From Escherichia phage APCEc01: DNA of 64,000 bases. Position 1 is the stretch's first letter. The number at the start of each line of letters is the position of its first letter. Made by a program: the position numbers and the translations under genes. The notes below the pieces were generated by a model. That model was not told the DNA's origin. It saw nothing but the letters and a program-made list of their open reading frames with translations, and ran no database searches. Shown piece by piece: positions 42,319-64,000 of this stretch. The DNA lies in the sequence record NC_029091.1; one strand, given 5' to 3'.

Positions 42319-42792
42319 ATGTTATTATCAGGCGCAAAATATAAAGAAGAAAAACAAAAATTTTATGATGCACAGAACGGTAAGTGTCCTATTTGCCACC
42401 GTGAATTAGACCCTGATGTTCAAGGTAACCATCTTGACCACGACCACGAATTAAACGGGCCAAAAGCCGGTAGAGTTCGTGGATTACTCTGTAATCTGTG
42501 CAACGCAGCAGAAGGCCAAATGAAGCATAAGTTCAATCGTTCCGGTCTTAAAGGACGTGATGTTGACTACCTCGAATGGCTTGAAGCTCTTCTTGCTTAT
42601 TTGAAACAAGATTATTCTGATAATAATATCCATCCTAATTTTGTTCCAGACAAAACTAAAGAGTTCTCAAGACTAGGTAAAGAGGAAATGATGGCTGAGA
42701 TGCTTCAAAGAGGATTTGAATATAATGAATCTGACACCAAAACACAGTTAATAGCTTCATTTAAGAAGCAGCTTAGAAAGAGTTTAAAATGA
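42319..42792 (+). CDS. 49: endonuclease VII (Holliday junction resolvase) gp49
   Basis: 157 aa, MLLSGAKYKEEKQKFYDAQNGKCPICHREL...HLDHDHELNGPKAG..., close to T4 gp49. Confidence 0.93.
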   Translation: MLLSGAKYKEEKQKFYDAQNGKCPICHRELDPDVQGNHLDHDHELNGPKAGRVRGLLCNLCNAAEGQMKHKFNRSGLKGRDVDYLEWLEALLAYLKQDYSDNNIHPNFVPDKTKEFSRLGKEEMMAEMLQRGFEYNESDTKTQLIASFKKQLRKSLK

Positions 42793-44606: not shown

Positions 44607-45073
44607 ATTATGATAGATTTTATCCTTGCGATTTTGTGAATGGCCCTGGATGCAGGGTCGTTCTTTTCGTTACGGGTTGTTTGCATAAATGCGAAGGGTG
44701 TTATAATAAATCAACATGGAATGCTAGAAATGGTGTTCCATTCACTGGTGAAACACTAGAACAATTAATTGAATGTTTGAATAATGATTATATAGAAGGA
44801 TTAACTATAACCGGAGGTGACCCTCTCTATCCTGATAACCGAGATGTTATTCATTGCATTGCTCAAACAGTAAAAAATCTTTATCCCAATAAAAGCATTT
44901 GGTTGTGGACAGGATATAAGTTTGAAGATATTAAACAACTAGAAATGCTTAAATATGTTGATGTTATTATTGATGGGAAGTATGAGAAAAATCTTCCGAC
45001 TAAAAAGCTGTGGCGAGGATCAGATAATCAGCGACTTTGGTCAAATACCGATGGGGTGTGGAAACATGATTAA
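44603..45073 (+). CDS. nrdG: anaerobic RNR activating enzyme NrdG (radical SAM)
   Basis: 156 aa with CLHKCEGC cluster motif; start overlaps nrdD stop. Confidence 0.9.
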   Translation: MNYDRFYPCDFVNGPGCRVVLFVTGCLHKCEGCYNKSTWNARNGVPFTGETLEQLIECLNNDYIEGLTITGGDPLYPDNRDVIHCIAQTVKNLYPNKSIWLWTGYKFEDIKQLEMLKYVDVIIDGKYEKNLPTKKLWRGSDNQRLWSNTDGVWKHD

Positions 45074-45183
45074 ATTGAATTACATTATGGATACTATAAA
45101 TGATATGATTTTTCGTTTTGGTCCAGAATTTTATTCGCAATATAGTTTAATGATTATCAATGTTTAGTTAATTAAGGGTAAAT

Positions 45184-45399
45184 ATGTACAAATTTCGTAA
45201 AGGTTTAGCTGATTTTCTTACATCTGTAACGTTCTTTTTGTTTATGGCAGTTGGAGCTATTTTTCTTATTCCTTTTACTGGTGTATTTTTCGTGATTAGT
45301 TTAATTTCTCCAGAAAAGGGTTTATCCTCCAGCGAATTCAATGAACGTTTGGACAAAATTACTAATAAACTGAATTCTGTTCTTGATAAAAAGGCTTAA
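45184..45399 (+). CDS. small membrane protein
   Basis: 71 aa, two hydrophobic segments. Confidence 0.5.
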   Translation: MYKFRKGLADFLTSVTFFLFMAVGAIFLIPFTGVFFVISLISPEKGLSSSEFNERLDKITNKLNSVLDKKA

Positions 45400-45401
45400 T
45401 T

Positions 45402-45719
45402 ATGATTAGTTTTGAGCGGTATGTAGTAGAGAGTTGGAATGGTTTTGATATGTTCGGTAATGACTATTATTTCTATGAATGTAGTCTGAACCCAAGCTTC
45501 TGGGCTGGACGTGAACAAGACCTCGAAGAAATCAACGCTCGTGCCGATTTGTTAGGTGAACTGCCTACGGTTTATTTTACCTTTGATGAATCCGGCTTCG
45601 TTATCCAGGTTTATTTTCCTGAAGAAAACTCTGGTGAGGATTCTGTTAATCCTCCTTATTGGGCTTACCAAGGAATTATTTCTCGTGGAACAAAACTCGA
45701 ACTTAAAGAACAAGATTGA
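45402..45719 (+). CDS. hypothetical protein
   Basis: 105-aa ORF. Confidence 0.5.
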   Translation: MISFERYVVESWNGFDMFGNDYYFYECSLNPSFWAGREQDLEEINARADLLGELPTVYFTFDESGFVIQVYFPEENSGEDSVNPPYWAYQGIISRGTKLELKEQD

Positions 45720-46008
45720 AATTTATGGCATCCCTGAAGAAGTAGGACGTTGTCCAGGATGTTATGCTGTTACAAAACTTTTAAAGGATCTCAATGCTCC
45801 TTATACATTTTATAAAGTCCTCACTAATAATGGTAAGATTGAATATGACCGTCCTTTAATCGTATCTCTTGCTAAACGTGCAGGATTCACTTCACTTAAT
45901 ATTCGTTATCCTGTCATATTTTTAAATGATAAGAAACAAAAGAATATTGCAGAGTTTAAAAAGTCCTTGATTTCATTAGGATATGACTCTGATATCATAG
46001 AAGATTGA
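45715..46008 (+). CDS. glutaredoxin-like protein (NrdH-like); start codon unresolved
   Basis: Thioredoxin-fold sequence KIEIYGIPEEVGRCPGCYAVTKLL with CPGC site; no in-frame ATG at the expected N-terminus. Confidence 0.5.
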   Translation: MEIYGIPEEVGRCPGCYAVTKLLKDLNAPYTFYKVLTNNGKIEYDRPLIVSLAKRAGFTSLNIRYPVIFLNDKKQKNIAEFKKSLISLGYDSDIIED

Positions 46009-46035
46009 CCAGGTGCCGCCTGGTCTTCTTTATCT
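46009..46035 (+). terminator. terminator-like hairpin
   Basis: CCAGG-TGCCG-CCTGG followed by a T-rich run. Confidence 0.45.
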
Positions 46036-46176
46036 CATTTCTAATATAATCCATTGGAATCTTCACTTCACTATCTCCTTGTGCCCCTCTCAAATCAAAA
46101 AATATTTTCATAAAACCAGTTTACATCCTCGATAGATATGTTAAGATTAACACCATCTACCGCAGAGGAAAACAAA

Positions 46177-46359
46177 ATGACAATTGAAGATAAAGAAATT
46201 AAGGTTGACCAGTACTATTCTGTCAATGGTAATGCCATACAGATAACCAGAGTTTCAAGCCTGGATGTTTGGTACCGTTCAATCAAATATCCAGAAATTG
46301 GTGAAATGCTTTGTGACCGTGGTATATTCTGTTCAATTGCGAAGGAAATTAAGTCATGA
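46177..46359 (+). CDS. hypothetical small protein
   Basis: 60-aa product from ATG after GAGGAAAA. Confidence 0.45.
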   Translation: MTIEDKEIKVDQYYSVNGNAIQITRVSSLDVWYRSIKYPEIGEMLCDRGIFCSIAKEIKS

Positions 46360-46604
46360 TTAGTTTAGATTCAAAGAAAGTTGTTCTATCTCTTAATGTA
46401 AATAACGAACGTCCGATATTCATTACCATTTCCGATTTGAACGTTGAAATTGCTAATGGAGTCCGTACTTATCAAACGTCTAAAACACATTGGGATTATA
46501 TCCCGATGTTGACGCTTACTCAGCGTTTAGAATCAATCGGTCTTAAAGACCTTTCAGTAAGTGAAGTGAATTTTATCAAACGCGTTGTATCAATCAACCT
46601 CTGA
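46356..46604 (+). CDS. hypothetical protein
   Basis: 82-aa ORF. Confidence 0.45.
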   Translation: MISLDSKKVVLSLNVNNERPIFITISDLNVEIANGVRTYQTSKTHWDYIPMLTLTQRLESIGLKDLSVSEVNFIKRVVSINL

Positions 46605-46611
46605 GGTACTT

Positions 46612-46905
46612 ATGGGTAAAACATATCGTCGTAAAGATTTGAAAGTTCGCGATTACGACTATTTTGGTAAGCGTAAAGCTCCTGATGGTGTTAGCCACAA
46701 AGACATGGTTGAAAACATTTTCCGCTCAGATAAATGGAAACGTATGAAAGGCGTTGATTCTGAAGTCAAGAATGAAATGAATCGACAACTCCGCAAAGAA
46801 GTTCGTAAGTTGAAAAAAGATGTTTACAGTAAAGAAGAGTATGATTATAATACTTCTCATACTGAAGCCAAACGTAAAGCTAACGAATGTTATCGTTACA
46901 GTTGA
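46612..46905 (+). CDS. hypothetical basic protein
   Basis: 97-aa Lys/Arg-rich product. Confidence 0.45.
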   Translation: MGKTYRRKDLKVRDYDYFGKRKAPDGVSHKDMVENIFRSDKWKRMKGVDSEVKNEMNRQLRKEVRKLKKDVYSKEEYDYNTSHTEAKRKANECYRYS

Positions 46906-46912
46906 GGAAATT

Positions 46913-47047
46913 ATGAATATCAAACGAATGCTTTTTAAGCAGGGATTATATACTTTAAATGTTAATCCAAAGGGTGATACAACTAAATGGTCTGTAAATG
47001 ACTGGATTAAGTTCATCGATGAAAATGGGGCCTGGAACACAAAATGA
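46913..47047 (+). CDS. hypothetical small protein
   Basis: 44-aa product from ATG after GAGGAAA. Confidence 0.35.
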   Translation: MNIKRMLFKQGLYTLNVNPKGDTTKWSVNDWIKFIDENGAWNTK

Positions 47048-47244
47048 ATCCTGAATCTATGTTATCGCAAAAGCTTCGTGAAGAACGTGCCGAATTCTTT
47101 GCCAATATGAAACTCAACGGCGTTGAGGATGAAGACTTCTTACGCTGGTTCTGGATTTACAAATACAAAGAATGCCAGCACGCTGTACTACTGACTTGTG
47201 CAGTTATGTACGAAGGCTGGAAAGGCGCTAAAAAGTTCGGTTAA
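47044..47244 (+). CDS. hypothetical protein
   Basis: 66-aa ORF. Confidence 0.45.
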   Translation: MNPESMLSQKLREERAEFFANMKLNGVEDEDFLRWFWIYKYKECQHAVLLTCAVMYEGWKGAKKFG

Positions 47245-47246
47245 TA

Positions 47247-47290
47247 ATGTACAACGATAGGAAGATATGTTATTATCTTCCTATCGTCTT
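47247..47290 (+). promoter_or_regulatory. early promoter with stem-loop
   Basis: ATGTACA -35, TATTAT at 47271-47276, 12-bp inverted repeat GATAGGAAGATA/TATCTTCCTATC. Confidence 0.55.
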
Positions 47291-47307
47291 AAAATGAGGA
47301 AAATATC

Positions 47308-47547
47308 ATGGCCCAAGAATTAGATTTTATCAAATTCAAAAAACACCTCGACGTTAAAATTGGGGATTCAATTGTTAGGATTGAGTATGACATTTTAACA
47401 GATGCTATTACTGTTGGTTGTGATGGAAATAGTTTCAGCTTCGATACAACCGAAAACAAATACCCAATCTATAAAGGCATCTTTGATATGGGTGTTGATA
47501 TTACTCCACGCGATACAAATTACTTGCTTTTCATGCTTAAAAAATAG
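47308..47547 (+). CDS. hypothetical protein
   Basis: 79-aa ORF. Confidence 0.5.
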   Translation: MAQELDFIKFKKHLDVKIGDSIVRIEYDILTDAITVGCDGNSFSFDTTENKYPIYKGIFDMGVDITPRDTNYLLFMLKK

Positions 47548-47590
47548 TATACAAACTCTTGAGAGCAGAGTATAATTCTCTCGTTGGATA
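47547..47590 (+). promoter_or_regulatory. early promoter with stem-loop (near-copy of the 17034 cassette)
   Basis: GTATACA -35, TATAAT at 47571-47576, shared core AAACTCTTGAGAGCAGAGTATAAT. Confidence 0.55.
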
Positions 47591-47613
47591 ATAAAATAAC
47601 CGAGGAAAATAAT

Positions 47614-47946
47614 ATGTCTACTAAAATCAAAAACGTAGTTAATTCTTTCGCTTTCGATAAAGTTGTTGCTCTTCTGGAATCTGGCAATATTGTTACTCCT
47701 CAAGTTCTTGACGCATGGGAATTCCGTCTTTATGAAATCATGCAAAAACACAACCAGAAAATTGGACGTAATTCTATTCGTGAAATTCTAGTGCAATATA
47801 TTCTTTCTGAATTTGACGTTGCTGCGTTTGGTGTTGAATCTAAAGCTTATCAGAAACATGAAATCTCTGAAAAGACTATCCGTCGTATGAAAAATCAACG
47901 TAAGAAAAAATTCGTTGACCTGAAAATTGTTAAGGCGGCAAAATGA
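47614..47946 (+). CDS. hypothetical protein
   Basis: 110-aa product. Confidence 0.5.
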   Translation: MSTKIKNVVNSFAFDKVVALLESGNIVTPQVLDAWEFRLYEIMQKHNQKIGRNSIREILVQYILSEFDVAAFGVESKAYQKHEISEKTIRRMKNQRKKKFVDLKIVKAAK

Positions 47947-48170
47947 GCGTATTAACAGAAACTTTGATTAATGACCTGCGTCTAGCTGGTTACGAAGTTG
48001 GTACAAATAGTCTAGGTCTTCCTCAGATTGAAGGTCCTGGATTTATTCTAGAATACGAATTCAAACAATGGTGGTTATATGCTACGGTTGACGATGCGTT
48101 GAATATTGATTTCGTTGACCAATTTGATTCGCTGGATGCTGCTCTTGAAGCAGCAAAGGAACTAGAATGA
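47943..48170 (+). CDS. hypothetical acidic protein
   Basis: 75-aa ORF. Confidence 0.5.
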   Translation: MSVLTETLINDLRLAGYEVGTNSLGLPQIEGPGFILEYEFKQWWLYATVDDALNIDFVDQFDSLDAALEAAKELE

Positions 48171-56698: not shown

Positions 56699-59410
56699 AT
56701 GAAAGAATTTTACTTAACGGTTGAACAGATTGGTGATTCAATTTTTGAACGTTACATCGATTCTAATGGCCGTGAACGTACTCGTGAAGTAGAATATAAA
56801 CCATCACTGTTTGCTCATTGTCCAGAAAGTCAGGCTACGAAATATTTCGATATCTACGGTAAGCCGTGTACTCGTAAGTTGTTCGCTAATATGCGTGATG
56901 CCTCCCAATGGATTAAACGCATGGAAGATATCGGACTTGAAGCACTTGGCATGGACGATTTCAAATTGGCGTATTTGTCTGACACTTATAACTATGAAAT
57001 CAAATACGACCATACAAAAATTCGTGTGGCTAACTTCGACATCGAAGTAACATCTCCGGACGGGTTCCCTGAGCCGTCACAAGCAAAACATCCGATTGAT
57101 GCTATCACCCATTATGACTCAATTGACGACAGGTTCTACGTATTTGATCTATTGAATTCTCCATATGGTAATGTAGAAGAATGGTCTATTGAAATCGCTG
57201 CTAAGCTTCAAGAACAAGGCGGTGATGAAGTTCCATCTGAAATTATCGATAAAATCATTTATATGCCGTTCGATAACGAAAAAGAATTGTTGATGGAATA
57301 TCTCAACTTCTGGCAACAGAAAACTCCTGTCATTTTGACTGGATGGAACGTTGAGTCATTTGATATTCCATATGTGTATAACCGAATCAAGAATATTTTT
57401 GGCGAATCTACTGCGAAACGTTTATCGCCACATCGTAAAACTCGTGTTAAAGTTATCGAAAACATGTATGGTTCTCGTGAAATCATTACATTGTTCGGTA
57501 TCTCTGTTCTTGATTACATTGGCCTTTACAAAAAATTCTCTTTTACCAATCAACCGTCGTATTCTCTGGATTACATTTCAGAATTTGAATTGAACGTTGG
57601 TAAACTGAAATATGACGGCCCTATTTCTAAGCTTCGTGAAAGCAATCACCAACGATATATTTCTTATAACATTATCGACGTGTATCGTGTATTGCAAATT
57701 GATGCTAAGCGTCAGTTCATCAACTTGAGCTTGGACATGGGTTATTATGCTAAGATACAGATTCAATCTGTGTTTAGCCCAATTAAAACATGGGATGCTA
57801 TTATTTTTAATAGCCTTAAAGAGCAGAACAAGGTGATTCCACAAGGTCGTTCTCACCCGGTTCAACCTTATCCCGGCGCTTTTGTTAAGGAACCTATTCC
57901 AAATCGATACAAATATGTAATGAGTTTCGACCTTACATCTCTGTATCCAAGTATTATTCGCCAAGTGAATATTAGCCCGGAAACAATAGCAGGAACGTTT
58001 AAAGTAGCTCCATTGCATGATTATATTAACGCAATCGCTGAACGTCCTTCAGATGTGTACAGTTGCTCTCCTAACGGCATGATGTATTATAAAGACCGTG
58101 ATGGTGTAGTTCCAACTGAAATCACTAAGGTCTTTAATCAACGTAAAGAACATAAAGGTTACATGCTTGCAGCTCAACGTAATGGTGAAATAATTAAAGA
58201 GGCATTGCATAATCCTAATCTTTCTGTTGACGAACCATTAGATGTTGATTATCGTTTCGACTTCAGTGATGAGATTAAAGAAAAGATTAAAAAGTTGTCT
58301 GCTAAATCTCTTAATGAAATGTTGTTTAGAGCTCAACGTACTGAAGTTGCAGGTATGACCGCACAAATTAACCGTAAATTGCTTATCAACTCACTTTATG
58401 GTGCACTTGGCAACGTTTGGTTCCGTTATTATGATTTGCGTAATGCTACTGCAATCACAACATTCGGGCAAATGGCTTTACAGTGGATTGAACGTAAAGT
58501 TAATGAATATCTGAATGAAGTTTGTGGTACAGAAGGTGAAGCTTTCGTTCTATATGGTGATACAGACTCTATTTACGTATCTGCTGATAAAATTATCGAT
58601 AAGGTTGGTGAATCTAAATTCCGTGATACCAACCATTGGGTAGACTTCTTAGATAAGTTTGCACGTGAACGTATGGAACCTGCTATTGATAGAGGTTTCC
58701 GTGAAATGTGTGAATACATGAACAATAAACAACACTTAATGTTCATGGACCGAGAAGCTATCGCTGGTCCTCCGCTCGGTTCTAAAGGTATTGGTGGATT
58801 CTGGACTGGTAAGAAACGTTATGCATTAAACGTGTGGGATATGGAAGGAACCAGATACGCTGAGCCTAAACTCAAAATCATGGGTCTAGAGACTCAGAAA
58901 TCTTCGACCCCTAAAGCAGTACAGAAAGCTCTTAAAGAATGTATTCGTCGTATGCTTCAAGAAGGTGAAGAATCATTACAAGAATATTTTAAAGAGTTTG
59001 AAAAAGAATTCCGTCAATTGAATTATATTAGCATCGCGTCGGTATCTTCTGCGAATAACATTGCTAAATACGACGTAGGTGGATTCCCGGGTCCTAAATG
59101 CCCGTTCCATATTCGTGGAATTCTGACATATAACCGAGCTATCAAAGGTAATATTGATGCACCACAAGTTGTAGAAGGTGAAAAAGTATATGTTCTGCCT
59201 TTACGTGAAGGAAACCCATTCGGTGATAAATGTATCGCATGGCCTTCTGGTACTGAAATCACAGATTTAATTAAAGACGATGTACTTCATTGGATGGACT
59301 ACACTGTTCTCCTTGAGAAGACATTTATTAAACCACTTGAAGGATTCACATCAGCAGCTAAACTCGATTACGAGAAGAAAGCATCTCTGTTCGATATGTT
59401 TGATTTTTGA
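56699..59410 (+). CDS. 43: DNA polymerase gp43 (family B, RB69-type)
   Basis: 903 aa; MKEFYLTVEQIGDSIFERYIDSNGRERTREVEYKPSLFAHCPESQATKYFDIYGKPCTRKLF..., exo motif FDIEV, pol motifs DLTSLYPS and YGDTDS, C-terminal SLFDMFDF. Confidence 0.97.
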   Translation: MKEFYLTVEQIGDSIFERYIDSNGRERTREVEYKPSLFAHCPESQATKYFDIYGKPCTRKLFANMRDASQWIKRMEDIGLEALGMDDFKLAYLSDTYNYEIKYDHTKIRVANFDIEVTSPDGFPEPSQAKHPIDAITHYDSIDDRFYVFDLLNSPYGNVEEWSIEIAAKLQEQGGDEVPSEIIDKIIYMPFDNEKELLMEYLNFWQQKTPVILTGWNVESFDIPYVYNRIKNIFGESTAKRLSPHRKTRVKVIENMYGSREIITLFGISVLDYIGLYKKFSFTNQPSYSLDYISEFELNVGKLKYDGPISKLRESNHQRYISYNIIDVYRVLQIDAKRQFINLSLDMGYYAKIQIQSVFSPIKTWDAIIFNSLKEQNKVIPQGRSHPVQPYPGAFVKEPIPNRYKYVMSFDLTSLYPSIIRQVNISPETIAGTFKVAPLHDYINAIAERPSDVYSCSPNGMMYYKDRDGVVPTEITKVFNQRKEHKGYMLAAQRNGEIIKEALHNPNLSVDEPLDVDYRFDFSDEIKEKIKKLSAKSLNEMLFRAQRTEVAGMTAQINRKLLINSLYGALGNVWFRYYDLRNATAITTFGQMALQWIERKVNEYLNEVCGTEGEAFVLYGDTDSIYVSADKIIDKVGESKFRDTNHWVDFLDKFARERMEPAIDRGFREMCEYMNNKQHLMFMDREAIAGPPLGSKGIGGFWTGKKRYALNVWDMEGTRYAEPKLKIMGLETQKSSTPKAVQKALKECIRRMLQEGEESLQEYFKEFEKEFRQLNYISIASVSSANNIAKYDVGGFPGPKCPFHIRGILTYNRAIKGNIDAPQVVEGEKVYVLPLREGNPFGDKCIAWPSGTEITDLIKDDVLHWMDYTVLLEKTFIKPLEGFTSAAKLDYEKKASLFDMFDF

Positions 59411-59450: not shown

Positions 59451-60086
59451 ATGAAAACTACTCCTATTACTATCGCTATTGACGCAATCGTAAAACAAGC
59501 TTCATCTCTTGCCACTATGGCTAAAGTAATTAGTCAAAACCCTGCTCGTTATAATGCTATTCTAGAAACTCTTCGACGCCCTGGACTTAGTAATTATGAA
59601 AGCCGGGTAATTATTACAGGTGTTGGTAAGAATGCTAATATCGCAACTAAAGCTTCCGAGACTTTTGCTTCACTAGGTATTCCTAGCATGTATTTGAACA
59701 CCGGGCATTATTCTCATGGTGACGCAGGATTTATTGCGCCTAATGACGTGTTGATTCATATTAGTCGTTCTGGTAAAACTGAAGAAATGATAGGTGTTGC
59801 TAAACATCTTCGTATGATTCGTCCTCAGGTTAAACAGATTCTGTTACATTGTAACCCAGACATTCCACAAGAATACGAAGCTCTTTTTGATTATACGTTC
59901 TGTACCGGTATCGCGGTAGAAGTTGACGAGAACTCTTTAGCTCCGACTATGTCCACTACATTGTTGTTAGCGCTTATCGATACGTTTGCTATCAACCTTT
60001 CGTCTGAACGTGGATTTACCTCTAATGATTTCCTTAAGTTCCATCCAGGCGGTGCACTAGGTGCCATGTTACGAGGCGAACAATGA
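59451..60086 (+). CDS. D-arabinose-5-phosphate isomerase, SIS domain only (KdsD/GutQ-like, no CBS domains)
   Basis: 211 aa; VIITGVGKNANIATKASETFASLGIPSMYLNTGHYSHGDAGFIAPNDVLIHISRSGKTEE and LAPTMSTTLLLALIDTFAINLSSERGFTSNDFLKFHPGGALG parallel the KdsD SIS domain. Confidence 0.8.
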   Translation: MKTTPITIAIDAIVKQASSLATMAKVISQNPARYNAILETLRRPGLSNYESRVIITGVGKNANIATKASETFASLGIPSMYLNTGHYSHGDAGFIAPNDVLIHISRSGKTEEMIGVAKHLRMIRPQVKQILLHCNPDIPQEYEALFDYTFCTGIAVEVDENSLAPTMSTTLLLALIDTFAINLSSERGFTSNDFLKFHPGGALGAMLRGEQ

Positions 60087-60226
60087 AAGCAATAACAATA
60101 GGACTTTTACTATTGATGCTTGTCATGACTATCTACTGGAGCTTAACGGCTCCGGTAATGATTCCAACACTTGTAATTGGATGGATTATGATTGGACTAC
60201 AAGCAAAGTATGAATGCTTTAACTAG
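60083..60226 (+). CDS. small two-helix membrane peptide
   Basis: 47-aa ORF (MKAITIGLLLLMLVMTIYWSLTAPVMIPTLVIGWIMIGLQAKYECFN); start overlaps isomerase stop (ATGA); below the ORF-track length cut-off. Confidence 0.35.
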   Translation: MKAITIGLLLLMLVMTIYWSLTAPVMIPTLVIGWIMIGLQAKYECFN

Positions 60227-60267
60227 AATAGTGTACAATACTCCTACTTACCAATGAGGACTTCAAC

Positions 60268-61953
60268 ATGAAAAAAGCTGTTATTCTTGGTGCTGGACTG
60301 GCAACTCGTTTGTATCCAATAACGCATCATATTCCTAAGGTGCTTGTTAATTATAAACAAGACACTATTCTGAGCAATTTGTATACAATTTATTCTGACC
60401 TTGGCGCAGATGAAATTATTGTAGTAGTTCATTCAAAATTTGCTGAAACTGTTCGAGCTTATTGTGAGCAAGAAGGGTTCAATGTGACTATTCGTACAGT
60501 TGATGAAGCGTATGGTTCTGCTTATGCTCTTGCTAAATTACACAAAGATTTAGACGGCCATAATGTAATTGTTAACTGGTGTGATATTATTCCTGATTTT
60601 GGTTCATGGTCTTGGAATGTTAACGCAATCTATGTTAAGGGTGACGAATGTCGATATAATTTCGACGGTGAAAATATCACTAACGTAGGTTCAACAGGTG
60701 GTAATGTTGTAGGAATTTATCAGTTCAAAGACTGGGAATTCTATATGGGTTCTACCGATGAGGAAATTCATGAATACTGCAAAGGACGTGATTTCGTAGA
60801 ATTCCTTTACGGCAGCGCATTCAATAAATCAGAGCTTATGAATATAATTGATTTAGGTGATATGCCTAAACTTGAAAAGGCTCATGAAGTTCGTGAACTT
60901 AATCGTAGTTTTAATGCAGTTGAAATTGGTGAAGAAACTGTAACTAAATTCGCATTAACCGAACAGGGTCGAGCTCTTCAGAAAGATGAGATTTCGTGGT
61001 ATTTGAAAGTGAAATCAGATTCAGTTCCTCAGTTAGTTTCTGTTAATGAAAATAACTTTGAAATGGAACGCATTAAAGGTAAGCCAGCATTTGAATATAT
61101 TAAATCCAAATCAAGTCTTGCTCGTCCACAAATTGTTGATGCAATTTTAGATGCACTGAAATTCAGCACAGACACTTATTTTGTAAGTCCTGAAACTGTT
61201 CGTCGTGATTTCACTAAAGAATTCTATACGAAAGTTATTGATCGTTGTGAAAGCATTCAACCGTTGATTGATTCATTTGGTAAAATCACACATGTGAACT
61301 ACACTAAGATTGGACGTCTGAAGCCAATGCTGAAACAAGCTTTAGAACACCTTATTCGGTATCATAACCGTTCTCAGGGACAGTACTCTGTTATTCACGG
61401 TGACCCGAACTTCAGTAATACTATGATTACTGATAACGGCGAAGTCAAGTTTATCGACCCTCGTGGATATTTTGGCGAAACCAAGATTTACGGGCCAAAA
61501 TTGTATGATGAAGCTAAAGTGCTTTATGCTGTTTCAGGTTATGATGAATTCAATGCTAATCCGACCTGGGGGCAGTTTACTATTGATGAAACAACTTGTA
61601 ATGTGACTATTAACATCAATCCATTAGTTTACAAATATGGAAAGATGAGTTCGTTTAACGAGTATCATCATTTGGCAGTGGCAATTATCTGGATTGCATT
61701 AGGTGGTTATTTCAAGAATAATCCACTTAAAGCGGTAGCCGCATATTATAAAGGTATGGAACTTCTGACTAAGCAATTACGTAACATGGGCCGTGTACTT
61801 CAGGACGGCTCTATTAGTTATGACGTAGCAGAACCTGTAACGGCTACTCTGATTACAAAAAATCCTGGTAAATGGGTACTAACTGATAAAGAAACTGGTG
61901 TTTCCTATCGTCCAATCGGTGGCGATATCACTCATCAATGGGAACGAATCTAA
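60268..61953 (+). CDS. bifunctional sugar-1-phosphate nucleotidyltransferase / sugar kinase
   Basis: 561 aa; N-terminal MKKAVILGAGLATRLYPIT is the RmlA/GalU/LicC-type G-x-G-T-R-L motif; C-terminal part has kinase motifs HGDPNFSNTMI and FIDPRGYFG (APH/choline-kinase fold). Confidence 0.75.
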   Translation: MKKAVILGAGLATRLYPITHHIPKVLVNYKQDTILSNLYTIYSDLGADEIIVVVHSKFAETVRAYCEQEGFNVTIRTVDEAYGSAYALAKLHKDLDGHNVIVNWCDIIPDFGSWSWNVNAIYVKGDECRYNFDGENITNVGSTGGNVVGIYQFKDWEFYMGSTDEEIHEYCKGRDFVEFLYGSAFNKSELMNIIDLGDMPKLEKAHEVRELNRSFNAVEIGEETVTKFALTEQGRALQKDEISWYLKVKSDSVPQLVSVNENNFEMERIKGKPAFEYIKSKSSLARPQIVDAILDALKFSTDTYFVSPETVRRDFTKEFYTKVIDRCESIQPLIDSFGKITHVNYTKIGRLKPMLKQALEHLIRYHNRSQGQYSVIHGDPNFSNTMITDNGEVKFIDPRGYFGETKIYGPKLYDEAKVLYAVSGYDEFNANPTWGQFTIDETTCNVTININPLVYKYGKMSSFNEYHHLAVAIIWIALGGYFKNNPLKAVAAYYKGMELLTKQLRNMGRVLQDGSISYDVAEPVTATLITKNPGKWVLTDKETGVSYRPIGGDITHQWERI

Positions 61954-62339
61954 TGCACCGTGTAGAAAACATGCTTAATCTTTGTTTTGATGTCGATGAT
62001 TGTATAACAGAGTGGAATAACAATCGTGATTACGTGAACTTCAAACCTGACGTCGAAATGGTGTCTGCCATTAATGCCCTGTATGATGCAGGGCATACCA
62101 TAACGCTTTACACTGCTCGCGGTATGAAGTCAGTAGGTCCTGGTCGTATAGCAATTGACATTCTCCCAAGTCTTATTCAGAACTTGGCAAACATTGGCTT
62201 GAAGTACCATAATTTGCTAACACATAAACCAGTATATGATTGGATTATCGACGACAAAGCTATGCGTCCTGACGAATTCAAAGCTCTTATGAATAAAGGC
62301 GAATTCGAAACATTTAAATCATATAAACCGAATCTATAA
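61953..62339 (+). CDS. small HAD-superfamily phosphatase
   Basis: 128-aa product from ATG overlapping the upstream stop (TAATG); HAD motifs FDVDDCIT, TLYTARG, K, WIIDDK. Confidence 0.7.
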   Translation: MHRVENMLNLCFDVDDCITEWNNNRDYVNFKPDVEMVSAINALYDAGHTITLYTARGMKSVGPGRIAIDILPSLIQNLANIGLKYHNLLTHKPVYDWIIDDKAMRPDEFKALMNKGEFETFKSYKPNL

Positions 62340-62399
62340 TAATTTAAGTAAGACCTGCAAAAAAAAACCATCGCATCAATTAACGCGAGATGCAAAAAA

Positions 62400-63560
62400 A
62401 TGAATACTTTTAAAATCGGAACGAATTTTGATTTAGCTCTTCTTGATAAAATCGTAGAGCTCAATAAAACTTATCCTAATAGCTTGATAAATGAAGTATA
62501 CGGCTCTACAAGAGAAATGGCTTTTGTAGCAGCCAGACCTGATTTTAGGCTTCCTGACGTTGACAAAAAGATGTTAGAAGATTACGTTAAACGTTGTAAC
62601 GAATTAGGTATTTGCTTTAACTATACACTCAACACGATAAATCCTGGTTCAAAAAGAGAACTAGTTGAGTGGAAGAAGAAAGCTATTCAGGATTATGTTC
62701 AGTATCTTTGGTCAATAGGCGTATGGCGTATTACTATCGCTAACCCTGTTGTTATGGAAATTGTTCGTGAAGTCAATAAAGACATTGAGATTGAAGTTTC
62801 AACAATTCTACATGTCGATGCTGTAACTCAAATCAAATACTTGCATGACCAATATAATATCAAAAAGGTCTGCTGTGGAATTCATAAGAACCGTTCAGTT
62901 TCTTTCCTGAAGCGTGCAGCAGAGTTTTGCAATAAGAACAATATAATATTTGAAGTTCTTGTAAATGAGTTCTGTTCTAATGCTGGTAAAGGGTATACAA
63001 CACATTGTAGCTATCGTGACTCTTGCTATATTTTCCATAGTACTGATGTTACAGCTGATGATGCTAAATCCTTAAACGGATATCCTATGCAGCACTGTAT
63101 TAAAGCTCGTGATACAGACCCATTTAACTGGTTGAGAACTCGTTTTGTTCGTCCTCAAGATTTGAAACTTTATAATGATATTGGTATCACTCAATTCAAA
63201 GTTTCAGGACGTACAGGTAGCACAGACTACATTTTGAAAGTTCTTGAAGCATACGCTTCTGAAAAGTTTGAAGGTAATTTGTTAGAACTGTGGAAGCCTT
63301 TAGAGACTATTTTCACTCTTGAAAACGAAACTGAGTTTTCACATACAGTAAATATTGAAACCTCTTTGTTAGATGGCTTTTTAGAAAAAAGGTGGTTCAG
63401 ACATCCAGATTTCGATTGTGCTAATGAAATCTGCGGGACGACGTGTACATATTGTGAAAGATATTATAAACGTCAATTATCTAAAAACGGGTTAGCAGAA
63501 AACTCTATATCTATTATTGATATAACTAACTCTGATGACGCTTTGAGGTACCCGGAATGA
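62400..63560 (+). CDS. peptidase U32 family protein (Fe-S, RlhA/TrhP/UbiU-like)
   Basis: 386 aa; ANPVVMEIVREVNKDIEIEVSTILHVDAVTQIKYLH...IIFEVLVNEFCSNAGKGYTTHCSYRDSCY parallels the U32 core; extra C-terminal CANEICGTTCTYC cluster; assignment from memory, not HMM-verified. Confidence 0.5.
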   Translation: MNTFKIGTNFDLALLDKIVELNKTYPNSLINEVYGSTREMAFVAARPDFRLPDVDKKMLEDYVKRCNELGICFNYTLNTINPGSKRELVEWKKKAIQDYVQYLWSIGVWRITIANPVVMEIVREVNKDIEIEVSTILHVDAVTQIKYLHDQYNIKKVCCGIHKNRSVSFLKRAAEFCNKNNIIFEVLVNEFCSNAGKGYTTHCSYRDSCYIFHSTDVTADDAKSLNGYPMQHCIKARDTDPFNWLRTRFVRPQDLKLYNDIGITQFKVSGRTGSTDYILKVLEAYASEKFEGNLLELWKPLETIFTLENETEFSHTVNIETSLLDGFLEKRWFRHPDFDCANEICGTTCTYCERYYKRQLSKNGLAENSISIIDITNSDDALRYPE

Positions 63561-63796
63561 TTTCTAGAAAAACTTTTAACCACCAACTTAATGAAGAGAT
63601 TTTGACTATGAAACTGAACACTAATGAACAAATTCTTAAAAAGGCCCATCAGGGCCTTTTTGAAACTAAAGCGGCTAAAGTGATTAAAGAACCTGTTCAA
63701 TTAGAATACTACGCTGATGCATTTCTTCATAGTGTTCTTGGAAGTATCGATGCCGAAGCTTTACGTTATATCAATATTGCCAAGAAATTCAAATAA
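63557..63796 (+). CDS. hypothetical protein
   Basis: 79-aa ORF, start overlaps upstream stop. Confidence 0.5.
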   Translation: MISRKTFNHQLNEEILTMKLNTNEQILKKAHQGLFETKAAKVIKEPVQLEYYADAFLHSVLGSIDAEALRYINIAKKFK

Positions 63797-63837: not shown

Positions 63838-64000
63838 ATGGGAAAACATAACACAATGAAATATATCAAAGCCGCAGATTTTCAAACCGCATTTAAAGCA
63901 GTCAATCGTGAAATTTTAGAAAACCCGGAATTCGTAACTGATTCTCGTATTGGACGTTGTAATGAAATTGGGTCTATGACAGTAGTTGTTGACACTCCAT
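63838..64000 (+). CDS. 42: dCMP hydroxymethylase (gene 42-like), 5' part only
   Basis: Partial ORF MGKHNTMKYIKAADFQTAFKAVNREILENPEFVTDSRIGRCNEIGSMTVVVDTP; EFVTD...IG...VVVDTP loosely parallels T4 gp42 DFVVDKTGVKTIEIIGASFVADEP; runs off window. Confidence 0.5.
   Translation, partial: MGKHNTMKYIKAADFQTAFKAVNREILENPEFVTDSRIGRCNEIGSMTVVVDTP

What the first reader, a model, noticed from the sequence alone, without database searches (positions are those of the whole stretch)
59451..63560. Sugar-activation cassette between DNA polymerase 43 and dCMP hydroxymethylase 42: candidate donor pathway for a non-glucose hmC modification
Where T4 has only imm between genes 43 and 42, this window has four tightly packed genes: an arabinose-5-phosphate isomerase, a fused nucleotidyltransferase/kinase, a HAD phosphatase and a U32-family protein. 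Read together the first three give ribulose-5-P -> arabinose-5-P -> arabinose -> arabinose-1-P -> NDP-arabinose. The region keeps gene 42 but has no alpha-glucosyltransferase between 55 and 47. T4-like phage RB69 is reported to carry arabinosyl-hmC, and the polymerase here is RB69-type. The pathway logic and the link to DNA modification are inference; no glycosyltransferase is visible in this window.
Basis: partly seen in the sequence, partly recalled or inferred. Interest (0 to 1): 0.9.

Follow-up and report, generated by a model that had tools for sequence, protein, structure and literature searches.

The report
Known arabinose DNA-modification cassette, unexplained U32
This RB69-like phage carries the already published gene set that makes activated arabinose for decorating its DNA cytosines, but one gene in it (a "U32" protein) has no role in the papers I could read and may be an oxygen-free way of making the modified base.

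Summary
The genes are real and sit where stated. The window is a Mosigvirus, 99.1% identical to Shigella phage JK42, and 151 phage records carry the same cassette.

The cassette is already known. Thomas 2018 proposed it for RB69. Lee 2026 summarises the enzymology of He 2026 and Mahler 2025.

Three points are wrong:
- The acceptor base is 5-hydroxycytosine, not hmC.
- "Gene 42" is an FMN/O2-dependent 5-hydroxy-dCMP synthase. It is 25% identical to T4 gp42 and carries the D169N signature.
- The route goes through arabinose-1,5-bisphosphate, not free arabinose.

There are six ORFs between the polymerase and the synthase, not four.

The new lead is the U32 gene.
- It is the most conserved cassette protein (79-87% identity across genera).
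- It has nine invariant cysteines.
- In many sister genera it sits next to a chorismate mutase, which makes prephenate.
- It is absent from Acinetobacter phages.
- Distant homologues lie beside dCMP deaminase, nucleotide kinases and a DNA glycosyltransferase, in anaerobes.

I propose, at about 45% probability, that it is an O2-independent, prephenate-dependent cytosine C5 hydroxylase.

The parts
56699..59410 (+). DNA polymerase gp43, RB69 type (upstream landmark)
   Evidence: 903 aa. Matches RB69 polymerase structures 1clq and 1ig9 full length at 2093 bits.
59451..60086 (+). Single-SIS-domain arabinose-5-phosphate isomerase (equivalent to RB69 gp55). Converts ribulose-5-P to arabinose-5-P.
   Evidence: Pfam SIS 4e-10. 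NCBIfam KpsF/GutQ 5e-32. PDB 3etn 7e-25, with the GxGK, HGD, SxSGxTxE and HxGGxLG motifs aligned. PHROG 5670. Lacks the CBS domains of KdsD.
60083..60226 (+). 47-aa hydrophobic ORF (equivalent to RB69 ORF054c), function unknown. Overlaps the isomerase stop by 4 nt.
   Evidence: PHROG 3610, E 7e-27, full length. Conserved at this position in X20, Entb_45 and JS98.
60268..61953 (+). Bifunctional AfhE-type enzyme (equivalent to RB69 gp52:53). N-terminal sugar-1-P nucleotidyltransferase and C-terminal kinase-fold arabinose-5-P 1-kinase.
   Evidence: NTP_transferase at residues 3-99, 8e-10. Weak kinase-fold hits at residues 344-409. HGDPNFSN...IDPRG motif. 561 aa, as in the corrected RB69 ORF53_52c. 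At least 99% identical in 138 phage records. Enzymology as summarised in PMC13326640.
61953..62339 (+). AfhF-type HAD phosphatase (equivalent to RB69 gp51). Converts arabinose-1,5-bisphosphate to arabinose-1-P.
   Evidence: Identical over 128 residues to PDB 9iqw (E 8e-88). NCBIfam EcbF/BcbF phosphatase 4e-13. DVDD motif. The start at 61953 is set by the crystallised protein and by the JK42 annotation.
62400..63560 (+). U32-family protein with many conserved cysteines (equivalent to RB69 gp50). No role assigned in the papers I could read. Proposed O2-independent pyrimidine C5 hydroxylase.
63557..63796 (+). 79-aa ORF (equivalent to RB69 ORF049c). Overlaps the U32 stop by 4 nt. Function unknown. 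It sits next to the U32 gene, in the position where some sister genera (Kanagawavirus, Thanatos, Winklervirus) carry a chorismate mutase.
   Evidence: PHROG 8601. No CM_2 hit. hhalign against the phage chorismate mutases gives probability 0.3%. Orthologues in Tegunavirus TG1 and Serratia 92A1 lie between U32 and the chorismate mutase.
63838..64000 (+). 5' end (54 codons) of the thymidylate-synthase-family 5-hydroxy-dCMP synthase. It runs off the window.
   Evidence: The translation matches the JK42 protein. The full-length JK42 protein matches PDB 9iqc, 9ir2 and 9iqu at 536 bits. It is 25% identical to T4 gp42 and has MRSQN against T4 MRSND.

Best explanation
The region is the sugar-donor half of the published arabinosyl-5-hydroxycytosine DNA hypermodification system of Mosigviruses (RB69, HY126).

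Shown elsewhere and transferred by near-identity:
- The SIS isomerase takes ribulose-5-P from the pentose phosphate pathway and makes D-arabinose-5-P.
- The C-terminal kinase domain of the 561-aa enzyme phosphorylates C1 to give arabinose-1,5-bisphosphate.
- The HAD phosphatase removes the 5-phosphate.
- The N-terminal nucleotidyltransferase domain makes UDP-arabinofuranose.
- Glycosyltransferases encoded outside the window transfer arabinose onto 5-hydroxycytosine in DNA.
- That base is made as 5-hydroxy-dCMP by the thymidylate-synthase homologue that starts at 63838, using FMN and O2.

Inferred here, at about 45% probability:
The U32 gene is a second, O2-independent route to the same hydroxylated cytosine. 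I propose a prephenate-dependent Fe-S hydroxylase of the RlhA/TrhP/UbiU-V kind. It would let the phage modify its DNA in the anoxic gut. The phage also carries an anaerobic ribonucleotide reductase for the same environment.
For: Identity of the cassette:
- 99.1% nucleotide identity to JK42. 151 phage records cover at least 80% of the region.
- The HAD protein is identical to PDB 9iqw. The neighbouring synthase matches PDB 9iqc.
- Domain hits for SIS, NTP_transferase, kinase motif and HAD.
- RB69 gene-by-gene assignments and enzymology are in PMC13326640. The earlier proposal is in PMC6024577.
- AfhE, AfhF, synthase, GT1 and kinase homologues are found in all nine loci compared.

U32 inference:
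- Only member of the cassette with no role in the papers I could read. Lee 2026's Table 1 says 'sugar or heterocycle reductase'.
- 220 phage records, all at least 81.6% identical.
- Pairwise identity across genera is 79-87%, above UvsX in the distant phages.
- An AroQ chorismate mutase above the Pfam cut-off lies beside it in Kanagawavirus, Winklervirus, Bragavirus and Thanatos. tblastn homologues of that mutase lie at the same locus in Marfavirus, Tegunavirus, Edwardsiella, Pectobacterium, Morganella and Providencia phages.
- Prephenate is the O donor or requirement for UbiU-V and RlhA.
- The invariant Glu aligns with RlhA E161. Nine cysteines are invariant, including a C-terminal CX4CX3CX2C.
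- hhalign ranks RlhA (86%) above TrhP, UbiU and UbiV.
- 57 Acinetobacter phages have AfhE. None appears among the U32 hits. DLP3 lacks it.
- Metagenomic homologues at 46-58% identity sit beside dCMP deaminase, Tmk-like kinases, UDG and a TAGT DNA glycosyltransferase. No thymidylate-synthase homologue is nearby.
- All seven loci found in the GTDB genome scan come from anaerobes or from uncultured MAGs.
- NrdD and NrdG are present at 42789-45073.
Against: Sugar pathway:
- I could not read He 2026 or Mahler 2025. The step order rests on Lee 2026's summary. Lee's own Table 1 still lists the free-arabinose order.
- Nothing was assayed for this exact phage.
- SIS is missing from the Potts1, JS98 and Thanatos loci, so it is accessory.

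U32:
- No biochemical evidence at all. No U32 hydroxylase has yet been reconstituted in vitro.
- Dhakavirus JS98 infects E. coli and lacks U32 and the chorismate mutase.
- This Mosigvirus has U32 but no chorismate mutase.
- One canonical cysteine of the CX6CX15CX3C motif is a glycine in the MAFFT register. hhalign gives a different register.
- The hhalign ranking used single-sequence templates.
- About 6e4 cytosines per genome times burst size means roughly 1e7 hydroxylations per cell (my estimate). That is a very high flux for this enzyme class.
Confidence: 0.85

Rival explanations
1. The cassette makes NDP-arabinose via free arabinose (A5P -> arabinose -> Ara-1-P) for arabinosyl-hydroxymethylcytosine. 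A T4-type gp42 dCMP hydroxymethylase supplies hmC.
For: Thomas 2018 reported ara-hmC in RB69. Lee 2026's Table 1 still labels gp51 'dephosphorylates Araf5p to Ara' and the C-terminal domain 'phosphorylates Ara to Araf1p'.
Against: NMR and MS show the sugar ether-linked to C5 through 5-hydroxycytosine. RB69 gp48 makes 5hodCMP with 18O2 incorporation and bound FMN. A later paper calls the hmC assignment erroneous. The synthase is 25% identical to T4 gp42 and has the D169N signature. AfhE is reported as an A5P kinase and AfhF as an Ara-1,5-P2 phosphatase.
Confidence: 0.04
2. The cassette is an auxiliary metabolic module for host surface sugars (Kdo, capsule or LPS), not for DNA.
For: Best NCBIfam names are KpsF/GutQ and 'capsule biosynthesis phosphatase'. 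GenBank annotations read 'capsule biosynthesis protein' and 'GlmU'.
Against: All hits fall below the curated family cut-offs. The genes are always embedded with the 5hodCMP synthase, a nucleotide kinase and a DNA glycosyltransferase, between gene 43 and uvsX. The DNA of RB69, DLP3, NP, Bas46 and LC53 carries arabinose.
Confidence: 0.02
3. The U32 protein is a redox or electron-transfer helper of the aerobic pathway. It might be a flavin reductase for the FMN-dependent synthase, or a 'sugar or heterocycle reductase'. It is not a hydroxylase.
For: It lies directly upstream of the synthase. Two probable metal-cysteine sites are present. Lee 2026 uses this label. The BASEL phage annotation reads 'putative enzyme involved in UDP-arabinose biosynthesis'.
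Against: gp48 alone yields 5hodC in E. coli. AfhE plus AfhF are reported to suffice for UDP-Ara from A5P. DLP3 (tri-arabinosylated DNA) lacks U32. JS98 also lacks it and keeps the rest of the cluster, but its DNA was not assayed in any paper I read. This reading does not explain the adjacent chorismate mutase. Distant homologues have no thymidylate-synthase partner nearby.
Confidence: 0.2
4. The U32 protein hydroxylates RNA, acting as a phage TrhP- or RlhA-like enzyme on tRNA U34 or rRNA. Its position in the DNA-modification cluster is coincidental.
For: All RNA-active U32 proteins do C5 pyrimidine hydroxylation. RlhA is the best hhalign match.
Against: It lacks the RlhA DUF3656 domain and the C-terminal domains of TrhP. 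Linkage to the 5hoC cluster persists through rearrangement in Thanatos. Distant homologues sit beside dCMP deaminase, dNK, NT5C, NMP-kinase fusions and TAGT. These are deoxynucleotide and DNA contexts.
Confidence: 0.08
5. The U32 protein is a collagenase-type peptidase, as annotated.
For: The Pfam family name and many GenBank annotations.
Against: No catalytic mechanism for U32 proteolysis is known. The invariant cysteine clusters and the nucleotide-metabolism context do not fit a protease.
Confidence: 0.02

Closest known systems
Arabinosyl-5-hydroxycytosine (Afh) hypermodification system of RB69, HY126, DLP3, Bas46/47 and LC53 (Lee 2026 PMC13326640; He 2026; Mahler 2025; first proposed by Thomas 2018 PMC6024577)
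   Same: Same genes in the same order, at 95-100% identity to Mosigvirus members. They are an SIS isomerase, the bifunctional AfhE, the HAD AfhF, a U32 protein, ORF049c and then the 5hodCMP synthase.
   Different: Nothing material. This is a member of that system. The window simply stops before the synthase signature, the first arabinosyltransferase and the kinase.
ADP-heptose pathway GmhA / HldE / GmhB of Gram-negative LPS core synthesis (own knowledge)
   Same: Identical logic: an SIS-fold isomerase, a bifunctional kinase plus nucleotidyltransferase, and a HAD phosphatase that removes the distal phosphate of a sugar 1,n-bisphosphate. Lee 2026's best AFDB fold hit for the DLP3 HAD protein (gp81) is a heptose-1,7-bisphosphate phosphatase.
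   Different: A pentose, not a heptose. UDP, not ADP. The kinase domain has an APH/choline-kinase fold rather than a ribokinase fold. Domain order is nucleotidyltransferase-N, kinase-C. There is no sequence membership.
T4 glucosyl-hmC system (gp42, alpha-gt, beta-gt, host UDP-glucose)
   Same: Same genomic slot between gene 43 and uvsX. Same strategy: a thymidylate-synthase-family enzyme makes a hydroxyl-bearing dCMP, and a post-replicative glycosyltransferase follows.
   Different: The base is 5-hydroxy-, not 5-hydroxymethyl-cytosine. The cofactor is flavin with O2, not folate. The phage must make its own sugar donor. The synthase is only 25% identical to gp42.
U32 prephenate-dependent hydroxylases: RlhA (ho5C2501 of 23S rRNA), TrhP (ho5U34 of tRNA), UbiU-UbiV (anaerobic ubiquinone)
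   Same: Peptidase_U32 TIM-barrel core. An invariant Glu equivalent to RlhA E161. Clustered conserved cysteines in the U32 motif plus C-terminal cysteines. The required chemistry is the same as RlhA's, C5 hydroxylation of cytosine. A prephenate-making enzyme is encoded next door in sister phages.
   Different: A separate subfamily, 17-21% identical. It lacks DUF3656 and the TrhP C-terminal domains. One canonical cysteine is replaced. It has its own CX4CX3CX2C tail. The presumed substrate is a deoxynucleotide or DNA. Function is untested.
Paired O2-dependent and O2-independent hydroxylases: UbiI/H/F versus UbiU-V; TrhO versus TrhP (own knowledge)
   Same: A flavin or O2 enzyme and a U32 enzyme make the same product in a facultative anaerobe. 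Here the two candidates are adjacent genes.
   Different: Redundancy is only hypothesised here.

Membership tests
Afh / arabinosyl-5hoC DNA modification cluster | SIS-domain arabinose-5-phosphate isomerase (RB69 gp55 type) | tested here: met
   PDB 3etn 7e-25, 2xhz 1e-18. NCBIfam KdsD 2e-30. PHROG 5670 1.5e-116.
Afh / arabinosyl-5hoC DNA modification cluster | Bifunctional nucleotidyltransferase and kinase of about 560 aa (AfhE, RB69 gp52:53) | tested here: met
   561 aa. NTP_transferase N-terminus. Kinase motif HGDxxxxN at the C-terminus. At least 99% identical in 138 phage records. DLP3 gp82 is 57% identical over the full length.
Afh / arabinosyl-5hoC DNA modification cluster | HAD phosphatase AfhF (RB69 gp51) | tested here: met
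   Identical to the solved structure 9iqw over 128 residues.
Afh / arabinosyl-5hoC DNA modification cluster | Thymidylate-synthase homologue with the D169N signature (5hodCMP synthase) | tested here: inconclusive
   Only 54 codons lie in the window. In the 99% identical JK42 the full protein has MRSQN and matches PDB 9iqc at 536 bits.
Afh / arabinosyl-5hoC DNA modification cluster | DNA arabinosyltransferases (RB69 gp46:47 and gp3) | not testable with these tools
   They lie beyond the window end. JK42 has a 299-aa ORF directly after the synthase.
Afh / arabinosyl-5hoC DNA modification cluster | Arabinosyl-5-hydroxycytosine present in virion DNA | not testable with these tools
   Shown for RB69, NP, Bas46 and other Mosigviruses, not for this isolate.
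KdsD/GutQ arabinose-5-phosphate isomerases | SIS domain followed by tandem CBS domains (about 320-330 aa) | tested here: not met
   211 aa, SIS only. Scores 106 bits against a curated cut-off of 505. It resembles the single-domain 3etn type.
T4 gp42 dCMP hydroxymethylase | Folate-binding Asp at the E. coli ThyA D169 position, and close similarity to gp42 | tested here: not met
   Asn at that position. 25% identity to T4 gp42. No T4 gp42 structure among PDB hits at E<=1e-10.
U32 prephenate-dependent hydroxylases (RlhA/TrhP/UbiU/UbiV) | Peptidase_U32 domain and fold | tested here: met
U32 prephenate-dependent hydroxylases (RlhA/TrhP/UbiU/UbiV) | Conserved Glu of the U32 motif (RlhA E161, needed for ho5C) | tested here: met
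   E185 is the only invariant acidic residue across the phage proteins and all four E. coli paralogues.
U32 prephenate-dependent hydroxylases (RlhA/TrhP/UbiU/UbiV) | Four-cysteine [4Fe-4S] motif (CX6CX15CX3C, or three of these plus a remote Cys as in UbiU and UbiV) | tested here: inconclusive
   C192, C203, C209 and C233 are invariant in 64 homologues. MAFFT places three on canonical positions with Gly at the second. hhalign gives another register. No coordinates were available to check geometry.
U32 prephenate-dependent hydroxylases (RlhA/TrhP/UbiU/UbiV) | Dependence on prephenate and independence from O2 | not testable with these tools
   Context only. A chorismate mutase is adjacent in sister genera. 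Genome-scan homologues come from anaerobes or uncultured MAGs.

The most novel reading that the evidence does not exclude
The U32 gene at 62400-63560 encodes the first U32-family hydroxylase that acts on a DNA precursor or on DNA. In most sister genera it is paired with a phage chorismate mutase. I propose an O2-independent, prephenate-dependent Fe-S enzyme that makes 5-hydroxy-dC(MP).

It would be an anaerobic twin of the FMN/O2-dependent 5hodCMP synthase encoded next to it. Related U32 genes in uncultured phages of anaerobes have no thymidylate-synthase homologue nearby, and one is overlapped by a TAGT glycosyltransferase. In those phages the U32 enzyme would be the only hydroxylase feeding base glycosylation.

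No paper I could read makes this link. I could not read He 2026 or Mahler 2025.
Probability: 0.45. Interest if true: 0.8.

Novelty: already known. Interest (0 to 1): 0.35.

Why it matters
The sugar cassette as described adds nothing beyond papers from 2018 and 2025-2026. The practical value here is a corrected annotation: 5-hydroxycytosine rather than hmC, a 5hodCMP synthase rather than gp42, and the bisphosphate route.

The U32 lead matters more. The only known route to 5-hydroxycytosine in these phages needs O2, yet their hosts live largely without it.

If the U32 protein is an anaerobic hydroxylase, three things follow:
- It would explain how gut phages keep their DNA protected under anoxia.
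- It would extend prephenate-dependent hydroxylation from RNA and quinones to DNA.
- It would give U32 enzymology a high-flux, LC-MS-readable in vivo assay. No member of the family has been reconstituted in vitro.

It would also flag a large set of metagenomic phages as carrying unknown hydroxylated or glycosylated bases.

Tried and rejected
- **ORF049c as a diverged chorismate mutase.** It sits where some sister genera carry one. Rejected: no CM_2 hit at E<=10, hhalign probability 0.3%, and Tegunavirus and 92A1 carry both genes in tandem.
- **Strict rule 'U32 present if and only if the host is a facultative anaerobe'.** Only one direction holds. U32 is absent from Acinetobacter phages, but Dhakavirus JS98 on E. 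coli also lacks it.
- **Reading He 2026 and Mahler 2025.** Neither is held. The Mahler preprint did not turn up in a bioRxiv search.
- **Literature search for an existing link between U32 or prephenate and phage DNA modification.** Nothing relevant.
- **Transposon-mutagenesis preprint.** It has no gene-level data for the Bas46 cassette.
- **Promoter and terminator scan.** Counts were within about one SD of the shuffle means.
- **Composition profile.** No sign of foreign origin.
- **Deciding which E. coli paralogue is closest.** hhalign favours RlhA, but NCBIfam's only (weak) hit is UbiU. Not resolved.

Full report
**Observation**

The + strand between the DNA polymerase and the end of the window holds six ORFs, not four:

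| Coordinates | Size | Identity |
|---|---|---|
| 59451-60086 | 211 aa | SIS isomerase |
| 60083-60226 | 47 aa | hydrophobic, unknown |
| 60268-61953 | 561 aa | nucleotidyltransferase/kinase |
| 61953-62339 | 128 aa | HAD phosphatase |
| 62400-63560 | 386 aa | U32 protein |
| 63557-63796 | 79 aa | unknown |

The first 54 codons of a thymidylate-synthase homologue follow, from 63838.

- The first ORF hits Pfam SIS and matches solved arabinose-5-phosphate isomerases (3etn 7e-25, 2xhz 1e-18). The GxGK, HGD, SxSGxTxE and HxGGxLG motifs align.
- The 561-aa protein has an NTP_transferase N-terminus. Its C-terminus gives only weak kinase-fold hits but shows an HGDxxxxN...D motif.
- The HAD protein has no Pfam hit but is identical over 128 residues to PDB 9iqw. 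That fixes its start at 61953, 15 nt downstream of the longest ORF.
- The fourth protein is Peptidase_U32.
- The polymerase is RB69 gp43.
- Nothing of alpha-glucosyltransferase size lies between genes 55 and 47.
- T4 has imm.1 and imm in the 43-42 slot.
- Base composition is uniform. Promoter-like and terminator-like sites were within about one SD of the shuffle means.

**What the window is**

The region is 99.1% identical to Shigella phage JK42, genus Mosigvirus. 151 phage records cover at least 80% of it at 95-99% identity. RB69 and HY126 are among the phages carrying the same U32 gene at 99.5-99.7%.

**What is already known**

- Thomas et al. 2018 found arabinose in RB69 DNA. They showed that ORF053c and ORF052c are a single 561-residue gene. 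They proposed that gene and ORF055c as UDP-arabinose synthesis candidates (PMC6024577).
- Lee et al. 2026 showed by MS and NMR that RB69 and DLP3 DNA carry mono- and poly-arabinosylated 5-hydroxycytosine. The sugar is ether-linked directly to C5. The thymidylate-synthase homologue (RB69 gp48) makes 5-hydroxy-dCMP, incorporates 18O from O2 and binds FMN (PMC13326640).
- Lee et al. report the enzymology of He et al. 2026 on HY126. AfhE is both an arabinose-5-phosphate kinase and a UDP-arabinose pyrophosphorylase. AfhF is the Mg-dependent phosphatase that converts arabinose-1,5-bisphosphate to arabinose-1-phosphate.
- A 2026 paper on Mosigvirus NP calls the earlier hmC assignment erroneous (PMC13390438).
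- I could not open He 2026 or Mahler 2025.

The central idea is right but not new: an NDP-arabinose donor pathway for a non-glucose cytosine modification. Three specifics are wrong.

1. The acceptor is 5-hydroxycytosine, not hmC.
2. 'Gene 42' is not a hydroxymethylase. The JK42 protein is 25% identical to T4 gp42. It reads MRSQN where T4 reads MRSND, which is the D169N signature Lee et al. give for 5hodCMP synthases. It matches PDB 9iqc, 9ir2 and 9iqu at 536 bits, while no T4 gp42 structure reaches E 1e-10. Only its N-terminus is in the window.
3. The order of steps is kinase, then phosphatase, then nucleotidyltransferase, via the 1,5-bisphosphate. This is the logic of the ADP-heptose pathway (GmhA, HldE, GmhB; own knowledge). 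It does not go through free arabinose.

Comparison across nine related loci shows which genes are core.
- AfhE, AfhF, the synthase, the first glycosyltransferase and a Tmk-like kinase are always present.
- The SIS isomerase is missing from the Potts1, JS98 and Thanatos loci.
- The isomerase is therefore an accessory that the host enzymes KdsD and GutQ can presumably replace (inference).

**The U32 gene**

This is the one cassette gene with no role in the papers I could read.
- Lee et al. list RB69 gp50 as 'sugar or heterocycle reductase' from fold hits.
- Their discussion mentions the RlhA and TrhP pyrimidine hydroxylation pathways without connecting them to gp50.
- Searches for papers linking U32 or prephenate to phage DNA modification found nothing relevant.

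Several observations point the same way.

*(a) Conservation.*
- The protein is in 220 phage records, every one at least 81.6% identical.
- In pairwise comparison it is 79-87% identical across seven genera. AfhE is 43-73%.
- It exceeds the core recombinase UvsX in the distant phages. In phiP4-3 the figures are 83% against 64%.

*(b) Chorismate mutase next door.*
- In Enterobacter phage Entb_45 the 79-aa ORF overlapping the U32 stop by 4 nt is an AroQ chorismate mutase (CM_2 2.4e-10, 40.9 bits against a cut-off of 27).
- The same domain sits next to U32 in Serratia X20, Proteus phiP4-3 and Shewanella Thanatos-2. In Thanatos the cluster is rearranged but the pair stays together.
- tblastn finds this mutase in 54 phage records from Enterobacterales and Shewanella. 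In the rows I inspected it lies beside the U32 and synthase genes.
- The phage mutases keep the equivalents of EcCM R11, R28, K39, E52, S84 and Q88. They have N and V at D48 and R51 (residue roles from own knowledge).
- Chorismate mutase makes prephenate. Prephenate is the oxygen donor for UbiU-V and is required for RlhA (PMC10990095, PMC5727448).

*(c) Metal-binding residues.*
- Aligned with E. coli UbiU, UbiV, RlhA and TrhP, the phage protein keeps the invariant glutamate equivalent to RlhA E161. The E161A mutant nearly abolishes ho5C.
- It also keeps cysteines in the Fe-S motif region.
- Across 64 homologues at 46-85% identity, nine cysteines are invariant: C158, C192, C203, C209, C233 and a C-terminal C340-X4-C345-X3-C349-X2-C352.
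- The exact register against CX6CX15CX3C is ambiguous. MAFFT puts three cysteines on canonical positions with Gly at the second. hhalign shifts the register.
- UbiU and UbiV each also use three canonical cysteines plus one remote one (ligand identities from own knowledge; cysteine positions confirmed).

*(d) Nearest paralogue.* hhalign of the family profile ranks RlhA, the 5-hydroxycytidine synthase, first (86%, E 5e-6, 205 columns). TrhP, UbiU and UbiV follow. Templates were single sequences, so this ranking is soft.

*(e) Phyletic pattern.*
- 57 Acinetobacter phages have AfhE. None appears among the U32 hits, and DLP3 has none. Acinetobacter is a strict aerobe (own knowledge).
- The correlation is one-sided. 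Dhakavirus JS98 on E. coli also lacks U32 and the mutase.

*(f) Distant homologues.* The 46-58% identical group comes from metagenomes. Six neighbourhoods were read.

| Locus | Neighbours of the U32 gene |
|---|---|
| L012, L015 | dCMP deaminase immediately upstream, Tmk-like kinase (L012), UDG, PolIII-alpha. L012 is from a 466-kb contig. |
| L017 | Overlapped by a TET-associated glycosyltransferase (TAGT 4e-8, above cut-off). Also a second glycosyltransferase, dUTPase/DCD and UDP-galactopyranose mutase. |
| L016 | Choline-kinase-like protein, KdsA-like synthase, epimerase. |
| L018 | Radical SAM protein, Tmk-like kinase, PolIII-alpha. |
| L013/L014 | Bacterial-looking: NT5C, deoxynucleoside kinase, nucleoside deoxyribosyltransferase. 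|

No thymidylate-synthase domain is recorded in any of these neighbourhoods.

*(g) Genomes.* A scan of one genome per GTDB species found seven loci. All come from anaerobes or uncultured MAGs: Erysipelotrichales, Lachnospiraceae, Romboutsia, Bacillota, BRC1 and Phocaeicola faecalis. In P. faecalis the operon upstream of U32 encodes a guanylate-kinase/methyltransferase fusion.

*(h) The phage's own adaptation.* It encodes the anaerobic ribonucleotide reductase NrdD/NrdG at 42789-45073.

**Proposed mechanism for U32 (inferred, about 45%)**

- Under anoxia the FMN/O2 synthase cannot work.
- The U32 enzyme would then oxidise the cytosine ring of dCMP, or of cytosine in DNA, through its Fe-S centres. 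Hydroxide released from prephenate decarboxylation would add at C5, as proposed for UbiU-V.
- The chorismate mutase of sister phages would supply prephenate free of host feedback control (inference).
- The demand is large. About 6e4 cytosines per genome times burst size gives roughly 1e7 hydroxylations per cell (my estimate). That could explain a dedicated mutase. It is also an argument against a slow enzyme class.

This Mosigvirus lacks the mutase. Its 79-aa ORF at that position is a different gene.
- hhalign against the phage mutases gives 0.3%.
- Tegunavirus and Serratia 92A1 carry both genes in tandem.
- Its N-terminal INHxLNE motif reappears fused to the mutase in X20.

Rival roles for U32 are listed with their evidence in the Rival explanations section: a redox helper of the aerobic synthase, an RNA hydroxylase, or a protease. 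The redox-helper idea is the most serious. Four things count against it.
- gp48 works alone in E. coli.
- DLP3, whose DNA is tri-arabinosylated, lacks U32.
- It does not explain the adjacent mutase.
- Distant homologues have no synthase nearby.

**Structure**

**Verdict**

- The finding is real.
- Its core interpretation is correct and already published.
- Three details need correcting.

Noticed in passing
window 60083-60226 (+): A conserved 47-aa hydrophobic ORF (MKAITIGLLLLMLVMTIYW...), equivalent to RB69 ORF054c and PHROG 3610. It overlaps the isomerase stop by 4 nt. Homologues sit just upstream of AfhE in X20, Entb_45 and JS98. It is a likely small membrane protein riding in a cytoplasmic sugar pathway. 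Function unknown.
   Followed up: partly
window 63557-63796 (+); L020 ~3010-3246; L021 3019-3243; L006 5158-5502: The 79-aa ORF049c is translationally coupled to U32. Its N-terminal motif INHxLNE is shared with orthologues in Tegunavirus and Serratia 92A1. The motif also appears in the N-terminus of the 114-aa X20 protein, whose C-terminus is the chorismate mutase. This suggests a U32 accessory protein that is sometimes fused to the mutase.
   Followed up: partly
L002 6158-6397; L005 7134-7391; L006 5158-5502; L004 5530-5904; L020 3230-3523; L021 3240-3497: Phage-encoded AroQ chorismate mutases sit next to U32 in arabinosyl-5hoC clusters of many genera. PHROGs lists them as unknown (phrog_10027). 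They keep most catalytic residues but have N and V at the EcCM D48 and R51 positions.
   Followed up: yes
L017 7001-8997 and flanks: An uncultured phage has the U32 homologue overlapped by a TET-associated glycosyltransferase (TAGT). Nearby are another glycosyltransferase, dUTPase/DCD, a Tmk-like kinase and UDP-galactopyranose mutase. No thymidylate-synthase homologue is nearby. It looks like a U32-based base hydroxylation and glycosylation system.
   Followed up: partly
L012 7447-9086; L015 6504-8083: In a 466-kb phage-like contig (L012) and a related 60-kb contig (L015), the U32 homologue directly follows a dCMP deaminase, beside UDG and PolIII-alpha, with a Tmk-like kinase in L012. This hints at hydroxylation of a uracil or cytosine deoxynucleotide in jumbo phages.
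   Followed up: no
L028 2996-7089; L013 5135-9098: Phocaeicola faecalis and a dockerin-encoding, bacterial-looking metagenome contig (L013) share an operon: GP88, a methyltransferase, an unknown protein of about 265 aa, then U32. In P. faecalis the methyltransferase is fused to a guanylate kinase. In L013 it is followed by NT5C, a PnuC-like transporter, deoxynucleoside kinase and nucleoside deoxyribosyltransferase. It may be a hydroxylate-then-methylate nucleotide pathway, by analogy with ho5U to mo5U.
   Followed up: no
L016 5545-9804: A U32 homologue is flanked by a choline-kinase-like protein, a KdsA/DAHP-synthase-family protein (6e-44) and an NAD epimerase, in a phage-like contig. It is possibly a different activated sugar for DNA decoration.
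   Followed up: no
L003, L005, L010 (Potts1, Thanatos-2, JS98): The SIS arabinose-5-phosphate isomerase is absent from these otherwise complete clusters. These phages presumably rely on the host enzymes KdsD and GutQ for arabinose-5-P.
   Followed up: partly
window 42319-44606 versus JK42 44873-47972: The window has endonuclease VII (42319-42792) abutting nrdD (42789-44606). JK42 has a SegG homing endonuclease inserted between them.
   Followed up: no
window 62313-62340 and 62371-62388: The 60-nt gap before U32 is the only sizeable intergenic space in the cassette. It holds a good sigma-70-like match (TTTAAA-16-TATAAT) and a short inverted repeat. U32 and ORF049c may be transcribed separately from the sugar genes. 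The scan as a whole is at chance level.
   Followed up: no
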